Source: the human T2T-CHM13v2.0 reference genome, Homo sapiens. Taken from it: DNA of 64,000 bases. Positions 1 to 45,959 of this stretch are shown here, in pieces. The stretch lies in assembly GCA_009914755.4 (NCBI GenBank), contig CP068257.2, positions 36,448,001 through 36,512,000 on the forward strand, written 5' to 3'. Both the position numbers and the translations under genes were made by a program. Each line of letters begins with the position of its first letter. The first letter of the stretch is position 1. The notes under the pieces were generated by a model, which searched no databases, was not told the DNA's origin, and worked only from the letters and a program-made list of their open reading frames with translations.

Positions 1-19
1 TCTTACATGGTGTCAGGAG

Positions 20-228
20 AGAGAGCAAGGTGGGGGAACTGTCACACACTTTTAAACCATCAGATCTCCTGGGAACTCATTCACTATCATGAGAACGGCA
101 TGGGGGTAACCATCCCTATGACCCAGTCACCTCCCACCAGGTCCCTCCCCGACACATGGGGATTACAATTCAACATGAGATTTGGGTGGGGACACAGAGC
201 CAAACCATATCACAGTGATACCACAATA
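20..228 (-). mobile_element. MaLR (THE1-like) LTR fragment, 5' part truncated by window edge
   Basis: Reverse complement of the THE1-type LTR start (…gccaaaccatatca / gggattacaattcaacatgagatttgggtggggacacagagcc); the same motif recurs at 43.7 kb. Family assignment is from memory of the consensus. Confidence 0.5.
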
Positions 229-9722: not shown

Positions 9723-10975
9723 GACAGGTGACAACATGCAACATGGAACTGAGTGGATGTAAGAAGTGAGTGTGGCTGGAGAAGCAAGACTAAGTCCAAA
9801 TCAAAGACACCACAGTATGTGAGGTTGGGTGGGAAAGGAGGAGGACATGGCAAAGGTGTCAGATAAGGACCCCCAGTAGGGCAAGGAGAAAACCATGAGA
9901 GCACAGCATCAGAAGGGCCAGGAGCCAGGCATGGGCTGCAACGGAGGATGTGGGCAGCTGAGAGGACTAGTGGAAGAATGACAGACAGGTGCCACGAATT
10001 TGGCAATGTTGAATGGATGCTGGTCCTTGGTAAGTCTGCATTAGTAGGGTGGCAAGGATGGAAGCCAGATGGGAATAGGATGCGGAGGCAGGGGTGAGGC
10101 GATTAAATTCAGACAACTTGTTCACTAGAAACAGAAGTGGAGAGTGGATCTAGAATGGGTGAGAGTGAAGAGATGGCTTTTAAAGATGGATCAAAGAACA
10201 AAGCTGGGGTGTCACATTACCTTTCAAATTTATTACAAAGCGGTAGTAACCAAAACAGTATGGTGCTGGTGCAAAAACAGACACATGGACCAGTGGAGCA
10301 GAATAGAGAACCCAGATATAAATCCACCCATTGCAACCAACTCATCTTCAACAAAGGCACCAAGAACTTACAATGGGGAAAAGACAGTCTCTTCCATAAG
10401 TGGTGCTGGGAAAACTAGATATCCATATACAAAAGAATGAAAATAGCCCCCTATCTCTCATCATACACAGAAATCAAATCAAAATAGATTATAGACTTGA
10501 ATTTTAGATCTGAAACTATGAAACTACTAGAAGAAAACACTGGGGAACCACCCCGTGACATTGGTCTGAGCAAATATTTCTTGTGTAAGTTCTCAAAAGC
10601 ACAGGCAACCAGAGCAAAAATAGACAATTGGAATTACATAATGCTAAAAAGCTTCTGCACCACACAGGAAACAACAAACTGAATAGACAAACCACAGATA
10701 GAGAGAAAATCTTTGCAATCTAACTGACAAGGGACTAATAACCTGAATATATAAAGAACTCAAACAACTAAATAGCAAAGAAACAAATAATTTCATTTTT
10801 AAAAATGGGCAAAAAATTGGGACAAACATTTTTCAAAAAGAAGACATACAAATGGCCTACAGTTATATTTTTTAAATGTTTGACATTGCTAATCATCAGA
10901 TAAATGCAAATCAAAACCATAATGTAGTATCATCTCACTCAAGTTGAAATGGTTTGTATAAAAAAGACAGGCAAC

Positions 10976-11177
10976 AGCATTAAGGAAAAATAGCTAATGC
11001 ATGCTGGGCTTAATACCTAGGTGATAGGCTGATAGATGCAGCATACCACCATGGCACACATTTACCTATGTAACAAACCTGCATACCCTGCACATGTACC
11101 CTGGAACTAAAAATAAAAACTGAAAGAAAAAAAAATGAAGATAAAAAACAATATGCACTATTCAAAAAAAAAAAAAA
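10976..11177 (+). mobile_element. Very short (about 200 bp) L1 3'-UTR + poly-A insertion nested inside the older L1, TSD about 'aggcaac'
   Basis: '…aatagctaatgcatgctgggcttaatacctaggtgat…catggcacacatttacctatgtaacaaacctgcataccctgcacatgtaccctggaactaaaaataaaa…(A)n'. The host sequence 'aaagacaggcaacagca' before it resumes as 'ggcaacgatggatgctggtgg' after it. Confidence 0.65.
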
Positions 11178-11760
11178 GGCAACGATGGATGCTGGTGGGA
11201 ATGAAGAAAGGGGAATTCTCATACGTTGCTGGTGGGAATGTAAATTAGTACAGCCACTATGAAGAAGAGTATGGAGGTTCCTTAAAAAATAGAAAATAGA
11301 ACTTTCTTATGACCCTGCAATTCCAGTACTGGATATATATCTATAAGACAGGAAATCAATATATTGAATAGATATCTACACTCTCATGTTTATCTCAGCA
11401 CTATTCACAATAGCCATAGCCAAAATATGGAATCAACCTAAGTGTCCACAACAGATGAATGGATAAAGAAAATGTGGTATATATACACAGTGTAACATTA
11501 TTAGGCCCTTAACAAAATAAAACCCCTGTCATTTGCAGCCACATGGATGGAACTGGGGGCCATTATGTTATGTGAGATAAGCCAGGCACAGAAAGACAAA
11601 TATCACATGTTCTTATCTGTGGGAGCTAAAAAGTGGATCTCATGAAGATAGAGAATAGATTGGCGGTTACCAGAGGCTGGGCATGGGAGGAGTACAAAGG
11701 GGTAAAGTGGGAAAAAATCATTAAATGTCTTTAAACTGTACACTTAAAAATGGTAAAGAT

Positions 11761-36130: not shown

Positions 36131-39100
36131 TGGGGGAGTGGGGGCAGTCTACACTTTTATCAATGCCTTTTGCTTTCACTCTAAATTACTTTTATTTTCA
36201 TTTTATTCTACCCTTTGGAGCATAAGATTTCTATGTACTTGTATATATACTTTTCTCATTAGTATGTTGGCTCCCTAAGGAGGGTATAAACTGGCCCTTT
36301 ATGTTATTACTAAATTCCCCTAGGCATTTATAACGATGAAAAATGTCAAAAAAAAAAGAAAAAGAAAAAGAAAAATATAGCAGTGCTGAAGATGGGGAAA
36401 AAAAGGTAGGCTACACTTATTTATTTCCCTTCCACCTTGTCATCTAGGCATTTTGCAAGCATATCACAACAGTATACATCTGATATATCTGCTGTCACCT
36501 CCATCACCCTTCCATTCCACCTGAGATCGTGTTAGGAAAAGAAATGAGGAAGACGTTTGTGTTCTTCTTGCTCATTGTTTCAAATGATGAGAAAGACTTT
36601 GATGAGACAGACAGAAAGAAGAATGAGGCAAAGCAAGAATAATAAACCCAAGTGCAATGATAAAACCAAGTGTGCAGTGGGAAAATATGCAAGACTAAAT
36701 CTAAATCCTTCAATGTGAGTCATCTGAGGATACCTTTGAAAATGGTATTTTTATTTGGTTTGTCTGAAACATTATGTAGCTTTTGTCCTGTGCTTGGTTA
36801 TCTCAGAGTCTTAGCTGTCAGAGAAGGAAGGGACCTGAGAGCCTGCTTTGTTTAAAGTTCCTCGTGCTGCACTGGAATCCATTCAATCACCAGGGACCAG
36901 CTGACTTCTGCTGAACCCAACCCCATCCACACCCACCCCCAGTCCTCAACCCACTTACTTTACATTCCAGGGGTTTGGGTGTTAGAAAGTCCTTTCTCTT
37001 GTAGAACTGAATATGATTTCCTTGTAAATCCATGAATTGGTCTTAATTACATCATAAAATAAATATGCTTGACAATTCAGCTATTAAGCAAAGTATACAT
37101 TTTGTATTACTTAGATGAAGTCTTTCTGAGGAGAAATCTTGGACAAAACTTGACGTCTATTCTTTTATTTTCATGGATCTCCAAACAATATGAACCAAAA
37201 TGGCTAGCCTGAGTGATTTAAGGGGTTCAGCAAATTGACCTATAAAAAAAACGGAGGCCAAAGTAGTTTGAAATATAGGACATAGAAATGTCTTTACTTC
37301 TTCCCAAGTAGTGAATGATCACAGGTCCCTGTGGGGTACTCAGGGCAGGAATATGCCCCCAATTTGTGGAGATGAAGGATCACTTTCTCATCTAGAGTGG
37401 TAAATTATATTAATTGGAGAAAGTGGTGAATTATATTAAAAGAGGCATTTCCAGTTCCAACTCTTCAGATACACATGGAAATGGGCAGTTGTGAGTATAT
37501 TTAGAGACACCATGTTGCACTAGACGTTAGAGAACGCGAGTGTCACGTTAAATGGTGATAGGTGAGACTGAAATTAGTTATCTGAACATTCTCTTTTTCA
37601 GAAAGATACTGGACCTTGCATTAGAAAAACCTGGAAAAAGTTACAAGGTATGGAGACATTATTGATGTCAAACATGATTTCAGACAGGCTGTTTGTTCTA
37701 ACCTCAGCCAAACTCCGGCCCCACCGGGGAGGCAGCAAGCAGATAGCAGGAGGAATGTGGAAGAGAGAAAGGCTTACGGAAAATGGACCAAAGAGGAAAC
37801 AAGGCAGAAGTTCTCCATCTCTTTTGATTGGGGCCAACTATGAGAAGAGATAGCCCCAGTGAGAAAAAGTGAGCTCTAAGCTCCAGGGATCAGCAGGGAG
37901 CCATGAGGGGAAAGTTTTAGTACCTGAGCTCTGTGTATATACAAGAAAATGCAAATACAAATTGAGCACCAAGAAATTACACATCTATACGCAGAAGGGA
38001 TAAGAAAAAAAGGCAAATTTACAATGTGACATCACTAATTAAAAGAATTAGGGAGGGGCAAGAGGGATCCTACTGTAGTAGATCCCAGACTTTTTGAGTT
38101 TATTAATTTTTAAAACTAGAATGTTGAGTTCATTTGTTTAAAATATTAAATGTAATTCAAATAATGGTATCTTAGTGATTATTCAAAATCAAAATTTTAT
38201 TTGTCAAAAAGAATGCTGAAAAAGGTCATATTCAAAGGAAATAATGATTATATGACTAAAGATAGTAATTAATTTCTCAGGAAAAAAATGATCCACCCAC
38301 ACATAAAATCCTTCATCTTTGTAGAAACTTATTTGAGGTAACCCTATTTTGCTCCCTTAAGCTCACCTTTGATTGAACAAAGTAAAAATAGTCTTTCTTT
38401 GTCTATGCATTTACTTTAATAAATAGGCATCTAGAAACATCAGAGGCAATAATATATCAAAAGCTAACTGAATTCCACCAAGCTGTTTTGAAAATGGGAT
38501 TTCTCCATCTTCGAATTTTCAAAAGCAATTTATCTCCTCCACAGGCTGACAAAAAAGGAAAGTTTTTGATGCCTTACTCTGAGGGAAAATTTCTTGATTT
38601 CAAATATGTAAGGAAAAGAGTTCTCTGCATATTTTATCTTATTGTATATATATATACATCTATCACTTTGTTTCTTTGTCAACCTCATAGCCAGAATTAC
38701 TGACTGATGATCATTTGATGTACCACACTAATTTCAGTGAGAGTTGTACTGAGTGTTTTATCTCATAAATATGTTTATAATCTCTAATAAACTAGGTATG
38801 CAATTTCTTAGTGAATTTTCAATGGTAATGCAAAGCTAAATATCAATTAATTAAAGAGTTCTGGGGGTGGAAAAGGGGACAAGGGAAAGGAACCACTCTT
38901 GGTTCTTACAAGATGGAGTTTGCAAGAGAACTTAAATTACAAAGGAAAAATGGCATTAAATTAATATCTAATTTCTAAGCTAGTTGACCAAATTATTTGA
39001 GGCTTATTGGCGTTCTCTTGCTTAGTATTGATATAGTACTTACTTAACTTGCTATCACCATAAACAAAAACAAACAATGATGACATGCTCTTCAAACTGA

Positions 39101-39732
39101 AAAGCTGCAGGTAGCATTCCCCACCTTCAATAGTAGCTGCCTGAATCTGTGTCTCTCCATATAACCTTTGAAATCAAACCGTTCAATGAGGATATTAAGA
39201 AATATCACCCCTAACCCTCATGTACAACAAAACTGGAAGACAAAGAATAGTTTAGACTCTAAGTGTAATGGGAAGAACCTCTCAAACCAGCAGAATCAGT
39301 TTCAGACTCCTGACTAAAGTCTCTCTGATGGACAAGGATGGAAGAGGTGTGACTGCATTTGAGGATGTAGCAGGGAGGAAAAGAAAAAGCACCCCCCCAA
39401 GAAGAATAGGGGTGGATCTCAGGAGTGTACTGAGATGGGACATAGAGAACAGGGACATGAGGCCTCAGGGATCCACTGGCTACTGTGGAATTGAAAGAAA
39501 GAGGCTTGATGTTTCAAAGGACCATAGGTGTAAGTCTTCTAGTAAAGAAGCAGGCAATGTGGAGGCTTGCTGGTAAAGGGGAAAAGATAGCAAAAGCTAG
39601 AAGTTATAGGAAGAAGTGTTATACATCAGGAAGCACTGTGGCCACCTCCACACGGTAGAAGAAAGCAACGAAAAAATATACCCCACTTACAAGGGCAACA
39701 AAAAAATATAAAATACTTAAAATAAATGTTGT

Positions 39733-40026
39733 GGCCAGGTGCGGTGGCTCATGCCTGTAATCCTAGCACTTTGGGAGGCCAAGGTGGGCGGATCACGAAG
39801 TCAGGAGATTGAGACCAGCCTAGCCAATATGGTGACATCCTGTCTCTACTAATAATAAAAATATTAGTCAGGCATGGTGGTGCAAGCTTGTAATCCCAGC
39901 TAATCGGGAGGCTGAGGCAGAAGAATCGCTTGACCCCAAGAGGTGAAGTTCCGGTGAGCCGAGATCGCGCCAGTGTGCTCAGTCTGGGCGACAGAGCAAG
40001 ACTCTGTCTTTAAAAAAAAAAAAAAA
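39733..40026 (+). mobile_element. Alu (AluS-like)
   Basis: ggccaggtgcggtggctcatgcctgtaatcctagcactttgggaggccaaggtgggcggatcacgaagtcaggagattgagacc … gactctgtctttaaaaaaaaaaaaaaa. Confidence 0.95.
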
Positions 40027-40039
40027 GTTGCAAGAAATG

Positions 40040-42331
40040 TGGAAAAAAAACTCATGAATAAGCCTTGAAAACTCTCCTGGAAGACCCATGATCAACTTGA
40101 ACCATAAGGAAAATGCCCCTTGTTCATGGACAGAACAAGTCAACATTATAAACTTGCCAATTTTCCCAAAAAGAATGAATAAACAATACAATCACAATGA
40201 AAATAGCAAGAAGTTTGTTTTTTCCCCCTCGAGCTAGACATTCGATTCTAAAATTCACATGAAATATAAAGATGGGATAATAGCTAAGAAACTCCTGAAA
40301 AGGAAGATAAACTGGGTGGGGGGCAGCCCTAACCCTATCAGGTATTAAAATATAGCATTGAGCTGCTGCATTTAAACGATTCTGGAAATGTTCCATGAAT
40401 AGACAGACCAATGAAACAGAATAGAAAGTAGATCCAAGTATATAAAAAATTTGTGTTTGATAAAGGATGAATGCATCCTTTGTTATACACAGACTTTCAT
40501 TTGGGAATGTATAAATTTGGGGGAATAATGAGCTTTCATTAATTACTGTAGAAATTATGAACTTTCATTATTTATTGGGGAAATTATGAACTTTCTTGTA
40601 AATAATGTTGAAACAATTGGTTTCATTTGTAAGAGAAAAACGTGGACCCATACTTCACATTATACTTAAGAGGAAATTCTAAAAGATCTAATATATAAAT
40701 GTAAAATTGAAACCACATAGTACTCAGATGAAACAAAACTTTGAAGGGAAGAAAATACTCAAAATCCAGAGACAATAAAAATAAAAGAAAGAATTAATAA
40801 ATTATATTCTCTGTGTGTGTGTGTCTGTATGTTTTAATATAACAAATAGAACAGGAAAAATAATCAAAGCTAAAATAAAAGAACATGTTTTCACCTGAAG
40901 AATTTAAATCTGTGAATCAAAATACTTCATCTATTATCAGTTGACTAAAACCATAGACCTGGACACAGTTTTGTAAAATTTATAAAAGCTCACTCCCCAA
41001 GTATTTCAGCAGAAAAGTCAATCTACCTACAATTTAATAAAAATAATATTTGTCTCAGACTTTTCCATAGCAATGAACATCAGATATAAATAAAAGTAAC
41101 ATTTACAGAGATTTAAAAAAGAAAGATTGTAACCCAAGAATATAAACTAAACAAATTTTCACTCATCTGTAAAGGTCAAAGTAAATAGTCAAGTCTTTAG
41201 GAAGTAGTTCACTTCCATGCCATTTTGGAGAAAAATAAAAAAATAATAATTGAATATGTAGTACATCAGAGCAAAGTAAAAAACTTGGTAATATGAAAAT
41301 TGTGGTAAATAAAGAACATTCAGGTTCATTTTTAAAAGTTGCAATTATTGAAAATACTCTTGAAACCATAGGGTAAATATTTTGAAAATGCTCCTGAAAA
41401 AGAAGAGTCTCCAGTCTTTCCCTCTGTCTCTCACAACACACAGCCACAAACACACTTACGCACTTTTAAAATATTAGATTATTACAACCAAAGTTAAAAA
41501 TTAGCTGGAGAAGAAGGCCAAGGAATAAAAAGCAGCCAGTTTCCTAATTTTCTATAAAGAAGCATCAATAGAAACTGTTTTATGTTGGCAATACTAATTA
41601 GATAAATATTGGTTCAAGTGCATGTTCTCAGATTTGAAGAAACTTATCAGATAATTAAAAACAAAATATACCTCTTTCTAGTTATTAGAAGTACAAAGAC
41701 ATTAAAAATAATCAACTTACAAAAAGCGGAAACAAGAAAATAAAAGCACACAAGCAGGAAAATAAAGGTATGAAATGCTAACTCCCTAAAGTCTATTATT
41801 TTCTCATCTATAAAATGTGGGTTATAACAAACCTAACCATAGGTTAATTTTGAAGATTAATAAGATAATGTTCAAAAAGTATTTCTCAGTGTCTGGCTCA
41901 CAATCGAAGCTCAAATAATGTTTATTATTACTATTTATAATAAAATATGACAGTTATCAATTATGAAAGTAAATTTACATAGTTAAAATTTAAATAAAAT
42001 ATTAAACCTTTCTTATTAAAGGGAAAAATTAATACAATAAATAAAATAACAAAGAGAATTAAAAATTTAGGCTTGTGAAAAGGTATCTCAAACAACACAA
42101 ATCAAAAGAAAGTAACAGTGTAGAATTCCAAGTAAAAAAGCATTAGATGATGCAAAGATGGTCATTTTATATGGATACATTTTTAAAAATCACAGTGATG
42201 ATAAAATTGTCATAAAATTTAATTAATTAAACATTTATCTTTACAATAAATAAAAGTATTTGGAAATACAAGGGATAAGAAATAATTTTTAATGCTTTGC
42301 TCTCAGTATTTATAAATCAAGAAGACCAAAA
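40040..42331 (+). mobile_element. A-rich ancient L1-like sequence in sense orientation (probable upstream body of the L1 that ends at 44863)
   Basis: Strongly A-rich coding-strand-like composition with scattered matches to L1 ORF2 sense (for example 'acagaatagaaag…', 'aataaaagcacacaagcaggaaaataaaggtatg'). Not aligned base by base. Confidence 0.35.
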
Positions 42332-42450
42332 ATAGGGCAACCCTCTTTTGGGCCCCCTGTCCGTGGTGGAGAGCTTTCTTCAATTGTTCATTAAACTCTT
42401 GCTCCAACCTCAAAAAAAAAAAAAAAAAAAAGAAGAAGAAGAAGAAATAA
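42332..42450 (+). mobile_element. Short retroposed fragment (about 85 bp + poly-A/(GAA)n) with about 20-bp TSD, inserted into the old L1
   Basis: 'gggcaaccctcttttgggccccctgtccgtggtggagagctttcttcaattgttcattaaactcttgctccaacctc(A)19(GAA)5'. It is flanked by 'ataaatcaagaagaccaaaaata' and 'ataaatcaagatgaccaaaaata'. Confidence 0.55.
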
Positions 42451-43171
42451 TATAAATCAAGATGACCAAAAATATACCTAAGATGGTAGAGGACTTTAAT
42501 AATGTAATTAATTAGATTTAATTAGTGTATATTAAACAATATACCTTTCCAAGGTTTTGGAAAACCTTAACAAAAACTATATCTTATGTAGTCTACAGGA
42601 TTTAAAAAAATTTTATTTGTATATGACACACTCTATCATGACTATGTAATAAAAATAAAAACTAATGGGAATAAAACATTTCAAAAAATCCAGTAATTTT
42701 AGAATAAAAAGAAAACATTGTAAATATTAGCTAAAAAGAAAAAGAAAATGAAAGTTACTACTACAAACCATTTAGAAAGTAATGACCATGTAAAACTATA
42801 TGTTAAAATTTCTGTACCAAGACAATTAAATGGGAAAAGAAAAGGCCTTTCAGCAAGTGGAGCTGGAAGAACTAGATAGCCACACAAGAAAGAATGAGTT
42901 GAAGTCCTATCTCACATACAAAAATTAGCAAAATGGAGGAGCTAAAACTCTAAAACTGTTAGAAGAAAATAAGCATAAATCCTCATGATCTTAGAATAGA
43001 CAATGGTTTCCTAGATAAGACATCGAAAGTATAAGCTGCAAAAGAAAAAAATACAAAAATTGGACATCATCAAAATTAAAAACTTATGTGTTTCAAAGAA
43101 TGCCATCAAGAAAGTGAAAGGAAAATCCACATAATGGGAGAAAATTTTTACAAATCATGTATCTTATAAAG

Positions 43172-43952
43172 CAGGGGTCCCCAAGCCCCAGACCACAGAC
43201 TGTACCAGTCCCTGGCCTGTTAGGAACCAGGCTGCACAGCAGGAGATGAGTTGAGGGAAGTGAGCATTACTGCCTGGGCTCTGCCTCCTGTCAGATCAGC
43301 AGCGGCATTAGATTCTCATGGAAGTGCAAACCCTATTGCGAACTGTGCCTGCAAGGTGTATTAGTCCATTCTCATGCTGCTATGAAAAAATACCTGAGAC
43401 TGGGTAATTTATAAAGTAAAGAGGTTTAATTGACTCACAGTTCGGCATGGCTGGGGAGGTCTCAGGAAACTTACAATCAATGGCTGGGGAGGTCTCAGGA
43501 AACTTACAATCATGGTGGAAGGCAAAGGAGAAGCAGGCACCTTCTTCACAGGGCAGCAGGATGGAGTGAGTGCAAGCAGGGGAAATGCCAGACACTTATA
43601 AAACCATCAGATCTCATGAGAACTCACTTACTATCACAAGAACAGCTTGGGGGAAACCACCCCCATGATCCAATTACCTCCACCGGGTCTTACCCTTGAC
43701 ACATGGGGATTACAAAGATTATGTGAATTATAATTCCAGATGAGATTTTGGGTGGGGGCACAGCCAAACCATATCATGAGGAATCAAGGTTGCACACTCT
43801 TTATGAGACCCCAATGTTTGATGATCTGAGGTGCAACGGTTTCATCCCTAAACCGTGCCCCTCCCCCTGCGCTTCCCACCCCCTGTTCCAATTTTGTGAA
43901 AAATATCTTTCATGAAACTGGTCTCTGGTGTCAAAAATGTTGGCGACCACTG
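43172..43952 (+). mobile_element. hAT-like MITE (TIRs 'caggggtccccaa…ttggcgaccactg') with 8-bp TSD 'ttataaag / ttacaagg', itself carrying a nested LTR
   Basis: Ends 'caggggtccccaagccccagaccacagactgtaccagtccctggcctgttaggaacc' and '…ggtctctggtgtcaaaaatgttggcgaccactg' are inverted complements of each other. The flanking L1 sequence is duplicated over 8 bp. Confidence 0.6.
43357..43777 (-). mobile_element. Solo MaLR LTR (THE1-like) nested in the MITE, with an internal perfect 33-bp tandem duplication (43447-43512)
   Basis: Starts 'tgtattagtccattctcatgctgctatgaaaaaatacctgagactgggtaatttataaagtaaagaggtttaattgactcacagttc' and ends '…gggattacaa…gattttgggtgggggcacagccaaaccatatca', the reverse complement of THE1. 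The unit 'atggctggggaggtctcaggaaacttacaatca' occurs twice. Confidence 0.7.
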
Positions 43953-44872
43953 TTACAAGGGACTCGTACCTAGAATATGTAAAGAATTATTACAACTCAA
44001 TAATAGAAGGGTAAATAACTCACTTTTAAAAATTAGCAAAGGATTTGAATAGACAGTTCTTTTAAGGAGATATACAAATGGCCAATAAGCACATCAAGGG
44101 TTGCTTGACATCATCAGCCATCTGCAAAATCGAAATCAAATCCACAATGAGATACCACTTCACACCTGTGACGATGCCTATAACAAAAAAGATGGATAAA
44201 AACAGGTGTTGGCAAGAATACGGATGGAGAAACTGGAATCCTCATACACTGCTGCTATGAATGTAAAATGGTGCAGCCACTTTGGAAAACAGGGTGGCAA
44301 TTCCACTCCCAGGTATATACCAAGAGAAATGAAAACATACATCCACACGAAACCTTGTATACAAATGGCCATAGTAGCATTGTTCATAATAGCCAAAAAG
44401 TGGAAACTACCCAAATATTCATGAACTGATGAATGGATTTAAAAATGTGGTATATTCTTATAATGAAACATGCTTCCGTGATAAAAAAAAAAAAAAAGAA
44501 ATGAAGTGCTGACATGTGCTACAGCTGAGACAAATCTTGAAGACATGAAGCTAAGTGAAAGAAGCCAGTCACAAAGAACCCCATATGGTATGATTCTGTT
44601 TATATTAAATTTCCAAAATAAAGGAATTTATATAAAATGAAGTAGATTAATGCTTGCCTTGGGCTACAGGGGCTGGAGCAATTGAGGGTGATTTTTAAGG
44701 GGTGCAAGGTTTATTTGTATTGTCATGAAAATGTTCTAAAATTGATTGTTGTAATTGCAGAACTCTGTGAATATACTAAAAGTCATTGAATCATATACTT
44801 TAAATGGGTGGATTGTGTCACATATGAATTATTTCTCAATAGAGCTGTTTAAAAAAAAAAAAACAACTTGTT

Positions 44873-45163
44873 GGCCGGGCGCAGTGGCTCACACCTGTAA
44901 TCCTAGCACTTTGGGAGGCCAAGGCGGGCGGATCACGAGGTCAGAAGATCGAGACCATCTTGGCTAACACGGTGAAACACCATCTCTACTAAAAATACAA
45001 AAAAAAAAATAAAAAATAGCCAGGCGTTGTGGCAGGCGCCTGTAGTCCCAGCTACTCAGGAGGCTAAGGCAGGAGAATGACATGAACCCAGGAGGCGGAG
45101 CTTGCAGTGAGCCAAGATTGCGCCACTGCAGTCCAGCCTGGGCTACAGAGCGAGACTCCCTCT

Positions 45164-45199
<36 letters not shown>
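44873..45199 (+). mobile_element. Alu (AluS/Y-like) with about 35-nt pure poly-A tail, TSD about 'aacttgt'
   Basis: ggccgggcgcagtggctcacacctgtaatcctagcactttgggaggccaaggcgggcggatcacgaggtcagaagatcgagaccatc … ctccctctc(A)35. Confidence 0.95.
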
Positions 45200-45201
<2 letters not shown>

Positions 45202-45959
45202 TGTACTATGACTTCAACTTCCAAGTGGAATGTAGATGTTGTGATTGCCCAATGTTCCCAACACAATTACTGGACAAAAAGCCAGACAAATGACCAAAAT
45301 CTTGTTTCAAGTCGCCATACAGTTGTAGAAACAATAATTAGATGAACTGGAATTTCACAGGAGGAGACTTCTAGAACAGTAGGAATTTTGCTAATGTTTA
45401 GTAAGGCCTCATGATCAGATTTGGCCCACACCAGGGAGAGAAACCGGAGATGTTTTTGTTGGTCACTCAGGGCTGGTATGGGCGCAAAAGATTATATAAC
45501 TTGAGAAGCACAGACTTAATAGGTGTTTTCCCCAAGAAATTCTCTGTGTGCTGGAGATGAACATGGAGGACTCGAGAGCTAGGCTAAGGGTTCCTAAAAG
45601 ACAGAGTAAAATCTGCTTTATTCTCCAAGTGCTTGAGAGACTGTATTTCCCCAGAGGGACTGGGCCTACCAACTAGTCCTCCAAGATGTTTGCCACATTT
45701 AAAGCTGCAGGATATGGGAGCTAAAGATCCAAGCTCAAATCTAGATAGTGGATTTGCCACAGTCTTCCATGTTTGAGGGAGAGTGACCCACTAGTCTCTC
45801 AGCCCAAATCCTTGAAGGGTCTTCCTTGAGAAACAGGGAAGGACCAAAGATGGATGAGTCTTAGGAAAACTGCATATGTGTAATAGAACTAAGAGGGGAA
45901 GCGGGAGAGAGACAATGGGCCAAAAGCAACAACTGAAGATATAATGGCAAAGCATTTGC

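What the first reader, a model, noticed from the sequence alone, without database searches (positions are those of the whole stretch)
42450..44863. Three-layer transposon stratigraphy: old L1 <- hAT MITE (8-bp TSD) <- MaLR solo LTR (5-bp TSD decayed on both copies by CpG deamination)
The L1 ORF2 sense sequence is cleanly split at 43171/43953 by an element with perfect TIRs (caggggtccccaa…ttggcgaccactg). It is flanked by an 8-bp duplication of L1 sequence (ttataaag/ttacaagg), which is the hAT hallmark. Inside that MITE a THE1-like LTR sits between 'gcctgcaagg' and 'tgaggaatcaagg'. The original MITE sequence there, recalled from its consensus, was …gcgagg|gatctagg…. The reconstructed 5-bp TSD 'cgagg' has become 'caagg' on one side and 'tgagg' on the other: the two copies mutated on opposite strands of the same CpG. 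This gives an unambiguous relative chronology (L1 oldest, LTR youngest) in under 2.5 kb. The LTR also carries a perfect 33-bp internal tandem duplication (43447-43512), indicating a recent slippage event.
Basis: partly seen in the sequence, partly recalled or inferred. Interest (0 to 1): 0.55.

Follow-up and report, generated by a model that had tools for sequence, protein, structure and literature searches.

The report
Nested transposon fossils in human-type DNA
An old L1 element was hit by a small cut-and-paste (hAT) transposon, which was later hit by a retroviral-type solo LTR; the layering is real and neatly documented, but it is one of hundreds of thousands of such nests in primate genomes and is ordinary.

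Summary
After removing 43172-43952 and one copy of the 8-bp duplication, the flanks give a gapless, in-frame match to human L1 ORF2p residues 1010-1228 (E=6.6e-27). The insert is a 356-bp non-autonomous hAT element. More than 90 independent copies from host DNA in metagenomes align straight across the point where the LTR sits, and other copies carry 8-bp duplications, three of them perfect. Those copies read TG, CG or CA at the first two bases of the inferred 5-bp target site (81% of 67 clusters). The ancestral site was therefore CGAGG, now CAAGG on one side and TGAGG on the other, as claimed. The 420-bp insert has the TG...CA ends of an LTR family, judged from 11 other copies, and none of them carries the perfect 33-bp duplication at 43447-43512.

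Corrections:
- The inverted repeats are 11/13, not perfect.
- The 8-bp duplication is 6/8.
- L1 identity is verified only from about 42816, not 42450.
- "Recent" for the duplication means only younger than the LTR insertion (P about 0.01-0.03 otherwise).
- The LTR looks more MST-like than THE1 (from memory).

Verdict: already known kinds of elements and an already known phenomenon. Low interest.

The parts
42450..42815 (+). Its identity is not verified.
   Evidence: No significant match to L1 ORF2p, to Pfam, or to other L1 DNA. By eye it resembles a degraded L1 endonuclease region; the only hit was a non-significant stretch against ORF2p 143-193.
42816..43171 (+). Left part of the old L1, ORF2 C-terminal region, sense strand.
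   Evidence: 42816-42897 is 75% identical to another L1 at 10359-10440. The translation matches ORF2p from residue about 999-1010 up to the junction.
43164..43171 (+). Left copy of the 8-bp target-site duplication (TTATAAAG), made of L1 sequence.
   Evidence: It fits the published hAT target motif NTYTARAN at 5 of 6 specified positions (PMC2836564).
43172..43356 (+). Left half of the non-autonomous hAT element (MER1-type MITE). Includes the left TIR at 43172-43184 and the left copy of the LTR's TSD, CAAGG, at 43352-43356.
   Evidence: Aligns to more than 90 independent copies. Its terminus matches the family terminus CAGGGGTCCCCAACC.
43357..43776 (-). Solo LTR of the MaLR (MST/THE1) type, 420 bp. 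It reads TGTATTAG...CCATATCA on the + strand. The minus orientation is assigned from the recalled family convention (TGATATGG...ACTAATACA).
   Evidence: Aligns end to end with 11 other copies whose termini coincide with these. No internal retroviral sequence lies between the two TSD copies.
43447..43512 (.). Perfect tandem duplication of a 33-bp unit (ATGGCTGGGGAGGTCTCAGGAAACTTACAATCA) inside the LTR.
   Evidence: Absent from all 11 other copies, each of which has a 33-column gap there.
43777..43952 (+). Right half of the MITE. Starts with the right copy of the LTR's TSD, TGAGG, at 43777-43781 and ends with the right TIR at 43940-43952.
   Evidence: The left and right halves overlap by exactly 5 consensus positions (CGAGG).
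43953..43960 (+). Right copy of the 8-bp target-site duplication (TTACAAGG).
43961..44863 (+). Right part of the old L1: the rest of ORF2 (with frameshifts and stops), the 3' UTR and an A13 tail at 44851-44863.
   Evidence: ORF2p match continues to residue 1228. Other L1 fragments in the window match this stretch. The tail is read directly from the sequence.

Best explanation
This is three successive insertions of transposable elements in a primate-type genome, all now dead.
1. An L1 of an old (L1M-like) type inserted by target-primed reverse transcription. It left its ORF2 3' part, 3' UTR and poly-A tail on the + strand.
2. A 356-bp non-autonomous hAT element of the MER1 group (MER1B-like, mobilised in trans by a Charlie-type transposase) was cut and pasted into the ORF2 sequence at TTATAAAG. 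The staggered 8-bp cut was filled in, giving the duplication.
3. A MaLR (MST/THE1-type) retrovirus-like element integrated into the central loop of the MITE at CGAGG, with a 5-bp staggered cut. It was later reduced to a solo LTR by recombination between its two LTRs.

Afterwards the methylated CpG in each copy of the 5-bp duplication deaminated, on opposite strands: CG to CA on the left, CG to TG on the right. A 33-bp segment of the LTR was also duplicated in tandem.

Shown here: the boundaries, both duplications, the ancestral CpG, the continuity of each interrupted host, and that the 33-bp duplication is specific to this copy.

Inferred: the enzymology (from what is established for these superfamilies), the solo-LTR origin by recombination, and slippage as the cause of the duplication.
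For: - L1 continuity across the excised insert: gapless and in frame, E=6.6e-27. DNA-level support from a second L1 in the window.
- MITE: 120 loci retrieved with a pattern placed on the arms. 91 non-identical copies span the LTR insertion point with no extra columns. The reconstructed length of 356 bp falls in the family's 310-361 bp class.
- 8-bp TSDs in independent copies: 8/8 in L114, L101 and L032; 7/8 in L050.
- Ancestral CpG: TG/CG/CA make up 79% of copies and 81% of clusters at that dinucleotide, whereas neighbouring dinucleotides are about 90% uniform.
- LTR termini are shared with 11 other copies, and the duplication is absent from all of them.
- The LTR is younger than the MITE. It is 86.4% identical to its closest relative, which implies about 7% divergence per lineage. 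The MITE is 16.7% from its family consensus.
- Literature: MER1A/B are Charlie3 derivatives (PMC5753468, PMC1914374). The hAT target motif gives an 8-bp TSD and the MaLR motif TN9A (A and T interchangeable) gives a 5-bp TSD (PMC2836564). The consensus site here reads A-TG-CGAGG-GA-T, which fits the interchangeable form.
Against: - The family names (MER1B, MST/THE1, L1M) rest on my recollection of the Repbase/Dfam consensus sequences. No annotated repeat library was available.
- The TIRs in this copy are only 11/13.
- The two 5-bp copies share only 3/5 bases, which alone is not significant (chance about 0.14). The 5-bp TSD depends on the consensus overlap.
- The MITE consensus copies were chosen for intact arms, so their divergence is biased low.
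- The LTR consensus is built from only 11 copies of mixed subfamilies.
Confidence: 0.93

Rival explanations
1. The order of the two inner events is reversed. The LTR element integrated into a MITE copy elsewhere, and the MITE carrying the LTR was then mobilised by the hAT transposase into the L1. In that case the LTR insertion predates the insertion into L1.
For: Nesting alone cannot exclude it, because a transposase needs only the termini. Both TSDs have decayed to a similar degree, 2 differences each.
Against: The LTR appears much younger (about 7% per lineage) than the MITE (16.7% from consensus). None of the 120 MER1-type loci carries this LTR, apart from one 42-bp chance-level hit. In the published chronology the Charlie3/MER1A/B activity period forms a group of its own (PMC1914374). 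By general knowledge, which I did not test, MST/THE1 activity came later.
Confidence: 0.03
2. The 33-bp duplication is not a mutation in the genome but an assembly or sequencing artefact, or it is an ancient feature of an LTR subfamily.
For: Perfect identity of the two units inside an element that is otherwise diverged.
Against: All 11 other family members lack it, including the closest relative L122, so it is not a subfamily trait. Perfect identity is expected for any duplication younger than about 4.5% divergence per copy. Nothing in the sequence suggests a join between assemblies.
Confidence: 0.04

Closest known systems
MER1B / MER1A (non-autonomous hAT-Charlie elements derived from Charlie3)
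   Same: Termini CAGGGGTCCCCAACC...GGTTGGGGACCGCTG, 8-bp TSD, about 340-360 bp, and an internal hairpin GGCATTAGATTCTCAT...ATGAGAATCTAATGCC. The majority consensus rebuilt from 91 copies agrees with the MER1 consensus as I recall it. MER1A/B are described as Charlie3 derivatives in PMC5753468 and PMC1914374.
   Different: Nothing unusual. This copy is about 17% diverged, has mutated TIRs (11/13) and is interrupted in its central loop.
ERVL-MaLR solo LTRs (MSTA/MSTB and THE1 families)
   Same: TG...CA termini, about 390 bp without the duplication, 5-bp TSD, and a target fitting the published MaLR motif (PMC2836564).
   Different: It carries a copy-specific 33-bp tandem duplication and a small extra insertion around 43723-43740 relative to relatives. 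From memory, the segment CAGGAAACTTACAATCATGG and TTAATTGACTCAC fit MST better than THE1. This was not testable here.
Genome-wide nested-transposon chronology (Transposon Cluster Finder / interruption matrix analysis, Giordano et al. 2007; Levy et al. 2010)
   Same: The 'stratigraphy' logic is exactly what these studies apply to 636,125 interruptions in the human genome (PMC1914374). MER1-type-into-L1 (2,453 cases) and MaLR-into-L1 (12,190 cases) are among the commonest nestings (PMC2836564).
   Different: This is one instance. It is slightly neater than average because both TSDs can be read and the CpG decay can be reconstructed.

Membership tests
hAT superfamily, MER1-group non-autonomous element | 8-bp target-site duplication | tested here: met
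   TTATAAAG / TTACAAGG, 6/8. Removing exactly 8 bp restores the L1 reading frame. Independent family copies have 8/8 (L114, L101, L032) and 7/8 (L050) duplications.
hAT superfamily, MER1-group non-autonomous element | Short terminal inverted repeats at both ends, shared with the family | tested here: met
   11/13 complementary in this copy, not perfect. Both termini coincide with the family termini CAGGGGTCCCCAACC / CAGCGGTCCCCAACC.
hAT superfamily, MER1-group non-autonomous element | Sequence similarity along its length to other members, once the insert is removed | tested here: met
   blastn gives 69-80% identity over up to 356 bp to dozens of loci, E down to 1e-75. There is no gap at the rejoined site.
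hAT superfamily, MER1-group non-autonomous element | Target matches the hAT motif WWN-NTYTARAN-NWW | tested here: inconclusive
   AT-C / TTATAAAG / G-AC. That is 5 of 6 specified TSD positions and 3 of 4 flanking W positions, against the motif in PMC2836564. A single site cannot prove a preference.
hAT superfamily, MER1-group non-autonomous element | Assignment to the named consensus MER1B in Repbase/Dfam | not testable with these tools
   No repeat library was available. The name rests on recollection.
ERVL-MaLR LTR (MST/THE1) | LTR termini TG...CA coinciding with those of other family copies | tested here: met
   TGTATTAG...CCATATCA. The same ends appear in L122, L124, L127 and others.
ERVL-MaLR LTR (MST/THE1) | 5-bp target-site duplication | tested here: met
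   The left half ends ...GCAAGG and the right half starts TGAGGAATC. Both cover the single consensus CGAGG seen in 91 uninterrupted copies. A 5-bp TSD for MaLR is stated in PMC2836564.
ERVL-MaLR LTR (MST/THE1) | Solo LTR: no internal retroviral sequence between the TSD copies | tested here: met
   All 420 bp align to the LTR of relatives, apart from the 33-bp duplication and a small insertion.
ERVL-MaLR LTR (MST/THE1) | Subfamily THE1 as opposed to MST | not testable with these tools
   There were no labelled consensus sequences, and a literature string search found none. Recollection favours MST-like.
LINE-1 | ORF2p homology in the sense orientation, followed by a 3' UTR and poly-A tail | tested here: met
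   E=6.6e-27 to human ORF2p residues 1010-1228. A13 tail at 44851-44863.
LINE-1 | L1 identity of the whole span from 42450 | tested here: not met
   42450-42815 gave no significant match in protein, profile or DNA searches.

The most novel reading that the evidence does not exclude
The perfect 33-bp duplication in the LTR is a very young, lineage-specific or still polymorphic insertion/deletion variant in the species the window comes from, and so could serve as a marker. Nothing else here leaves room for a new mechanism.
Probability: 0.1. Interest if true: 0.12.

Novelty: already known. Interest (0 to 1): 0.07.

Why it matters
It matters little beyond being a clean teaching example. One 2.4-kb stretch shows three transposition mechanisms and their characteristic target duplications: variable for L1 (not examined here), 8 bp for hAT and 5 bp for MaLR. 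It also shows a CpG that decayed on opposite strands in the two copies of one duplication. Nested insertions of this kind are already used genome-wide to order transposon families in time, so this case adds no new information about those families. The exercise did show that a first-stage reading from sequence and memory alone can be accurate, and that repeat consensus sequences can be rebuilt from host DNA contaminating metagenome and bacterial assemblies when no repeat library is at hand.

Tried and rejected
- Inverted-repeat search with a 7-base seed did not report the TIRs, because mismatches break them into runs of 4 bases or fewer. They were checked by hand instead.
- Aligning the MITE's left arm to the reverse complement of its right arm found only an 11-bp match. 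The element is not a long palindrome.
- Pfam scan of the rejoined ORF2 C-terminal translation: no family.
- Looking for L1 upstream of 42816 all came back without a significant result: a three-frame translation of 38701-42334 against PDB sequences, a hand-stitched endonuclease-like peptide against PDB and Pfam, and sensitive blastn against the other loci and the rest of the window.
- Two scans of viral contigs, one for the MITE arm and one for the duplication junction, gave 0 hits.
- Rfam on 42000-45400: nothing.
- A literature string search for consensus fragments found only primers with no family labels.
- Rejected the idea that the duplication arose by microhomology-mediated slippage. The junctions share no base with the flanks, since the unit cannot be rotated in either direction. 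'Slippage' therefore remains an inference.

Full report
**What the window is.** The region sits in primate-type DNA. An Alu with a 35-base A tail lies just downstream, at about 44873-45199. Base composition is AT-rich and A-skewed on the + strand around the finding.

**Observation check.**
- The insert runs 43172-43952.
- The 8-bp flanks are TTATAAAG (43164-43171) and TTACAAGG (43953-43960), 6/8 identical.
- The termini are CAGGGGTCCCCAA and, on the other strand, CAGTGGTCGCCAA. That is 11/13, so 'perfect TIRs' is wrong.
- The inner insert runs 43357-43776, from TGTATTAG to CCATATCA. It sits between ...GCCTGCAAGG and TGAGGAATCAAGG....
- The 33-bp unit ATGGCTGGGGAGGTCTCAGGAAACTTACAATCA is present exactly twice, 100% identical, at 43447-43512.

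**Layer 1, the L1.**
- I removed the insert and one copy of the 8-bp duplication and translated the result.
- A frameshift-corrected translation matches human L1 ORF2p (PDB 8sxt and others) over residues 1010-1228 with E=6.6e-27.
- The alignment passes the junction without a gap and in frame...WEKIFTNHVSYK|GLVPRICKELLQL... against ...[25 protein letters not shown]....
- A second L1 in the same window (10.3-11.0 kb) aligns through the junction with no gap when one copy is removed. Keeping both copies needs 8 more gap columns.
- The element ends in a typical old-L1 3' UTR and an A13 tail at 44851-44863.
- The left limit is less clear. L1 similarity is demonstrable from about 42816 by DNA and from ORF2p residue about 999 by protein.
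- The stretch 42450-42815 gave nothing significant in any search. By eye it looks like a badly degraded endonuclease region, which would imply an internal deletion or a second, older L1 fragment.

**Layer 2, the MITE.**
- No repeat library was available, so I fetched relatives. A pattern placed on the element's internal hairpin arms (GGCATTAGATTCTCAT N1-2 GRAG), away from the site in question, hit at least 120 contigs in the metagenome collection. These are evidently host DNA.
- With the LTR and one 5-bp copy removed, the window's element is 356 bp. It aligns to dozens of these contigs at 69-80% identity over up to its full length.
- Thirteen loci that include both ends have the same termini (CAGGGGTCCCCAACC... 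/ ...GGTTGGGGACCGCTG). Their lengths are 310-361 bp or 467-546 bp.
- Those loci carry 8-bp duplications: GTTTAGAG, TGCTACTG and GACTAGAA are 8/8, and CATATATC/CATATATG is 7/8.
- The window's target TTATAAAG fits the published hAT motif NTYTARAN at 5 of 6 specified positions (PMC2836564).
- The rebuilt majority consensus agrees with the MER1 consensus as I remember it. MER1A and MER1B are described as non-autonomous derivatives of Charlie3 (PMC5753468; PMC1914374).

**Layer 3, the LTR, and the CpG claim.**
- Ninety-one non-identical copies run uninterrupted across the point where the LTR sits. No alignment column lies between the rejoined halves.
- The consensus there is GCATG-CGAGG-GATCTAGGTTG. 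The window's left half ends ...GCAAGG and the right half begins TGAGG-AATCAAGGTTG. The two halves therefore overlap by exactly the five positions CGAGG.
- At the first two of these positions the copies read TG 38, CG 20, CA 14 and other 19. After clustering at 93% identity into 67 groups the counts are TG 28, CG 14, CA 12, together 81%.
- Neighbouring dinucleotides are about 90% uniform. This is the standard signature of an ancestral methylated CpG.
- Starting from CG, each copy needs one CpG transition (CG to CA on the left, CG to TG on the right). Starting from CA or TG, one copy would need two ordinary transitions.
- The 3/5 identity of the two copies would not be significant alone (chance about 0.14). 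The evidence is the consensus overlap.
- The consensus context A-TG-[CGAGG]-GA-T fits the published MaLR target TN9A with interchangeable A/T, which yields a 5-bp TSD (PMC2836564).

**The LTR family.**
- A scan of bacterial and archaeal genome assemblies with CAGGAAACTTACAATCATGG found 12 contigs, most of them short and of very low coverage. I take these to be human contamination.
- Eleven align to the window's LTR, several of them end to end, with the same TGTATTAG and CCATATCA ends.
- None has the 33-bp duplication. Each shows a 33-column gap there.
- All 420 bp are LTR sequence, so this is a solo LTR.
- The closest relative, L122, is 86.4% identical over aligned columns. That suggests about 7% divergence per lineage, against 16.7% for the MITE from its consensus. 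This fits the nesting order.
- From memory the sequence looks more MST-like than THE1. Both belong to MaLR, and I could not test the subfamily.

**The duplication.**
- The unit contains no CpG.
- If the duplication were as old as the LTR insertion, about 3.6-4.6 differences would be expected between the units. That gives P(0 differences) of about 0.01-0.03, so it is younger than the insertion.
- The 95% bound is only about 4.5% divergence per copy, which is tens of millions of years. 'Recent' is therefore relative.
- The junctions share no microhomology with the flanks.

**Rivals.**
- A MITE that moved while already carrying the LTR cannot be excluded by nesting alone. The divergence figures argue against it, and no such composite appears among the 120 loci.
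- The duplication as an artefact or a subfamily trait is argued against.

**Comparison with what is known, and verdict.**
- Nested insertions are catalogued genome-wide: 636,125 interruptions in 307,412 clusters (PMC1914374). They include 2,453 exact MER1-type-into-L1 and 12,190 MaLR-into-L1 cases (PMC2836564), and they are routinely used to order families in time.
- All three elements belong to long-known families, and no step needs a new mechanism.
- The finding is real, well read by the first stage, and ordinary.

Noticed in passing
About 77 bp of unique sequence (GGGCAACCCTCTTTTGGGCCCCC...TTCATTAAACTCTTGCTCCAACCTC, with an ATTAAA signal) is followed by A20 and (GAA)n at 42335-42450. It is flanked by a 24-bp direct repeat, TATAAATCAAGA[A/T]GACCAAAAATA (42311-42334 and 42451-42474, 23/24). 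It looks like an L1-mediated retrocopy of a very short polyadenylated RNA. From memory the sequence resembles the R region of a class I ERV LTR (HERV-W/H-like), i.e. an R-only processed copy. That identification was not verified.
   Followed up: partly
By eye it resembles the L1 endonuclease region (e.g. LDLISVY against ADLIDIY), while ORF2 residue about 915 follows directly at about 42815. That would suggest a roughly 1.8-kb internal deletion or two juxtaposed L1 fragments.
   Followed up: partly
window 43723-43740: The LTR has a small extra segment (about 9-18 bp, CAAAGATTATGTGAATTAT region) relative to its closest relatives. It may be a second small duplication of GATTA-containing sequence.
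   Followed up: no
window 44873-45199: A full-length Alu with a 35-base A tail is inserted 9 bp downstream of the L1 poly-A tail. A likely short duplication around AACTTGT flanks it.
   Followed up: no
window 16-212 and 10300-11500: Another MaLR LTR fragment lies at the window start (75% identical to LTR positions 207-420). A second sense-strand L1 ORF2 3' region lies at 10.3-11.5 kb. Further L1 fragments lie on the minus strand at about 47.5-48.1 kb and 61.0-61.4 kb.
   Followed up: partly
loci L121-L132 (genome contigs) and L001-L120 (metagenome contigs): Several of the 12 hits in bacterial/archaeal assemblies are short, very low-coverage contigs made of primate MaLR LTR sequence (e.g. in the Arthrobacter antarcticus, Actinomadura cremea, Ruegeria haliotis and Legionella sp. 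assemblies). I take this to be human DNA contamination of the public assemblies. Many gut-metagenome contigs likewise carry host MER1-type elements.
   Followed up: no
loci L122, L127, L130: Three LTR copies share the same 12-base sequence (GTACCAATTTAC) directly next to the TGTATTAG end. These are probably LTRs still attached to internal MaLR sequence rather than solo LTRs.
   Followed up: no
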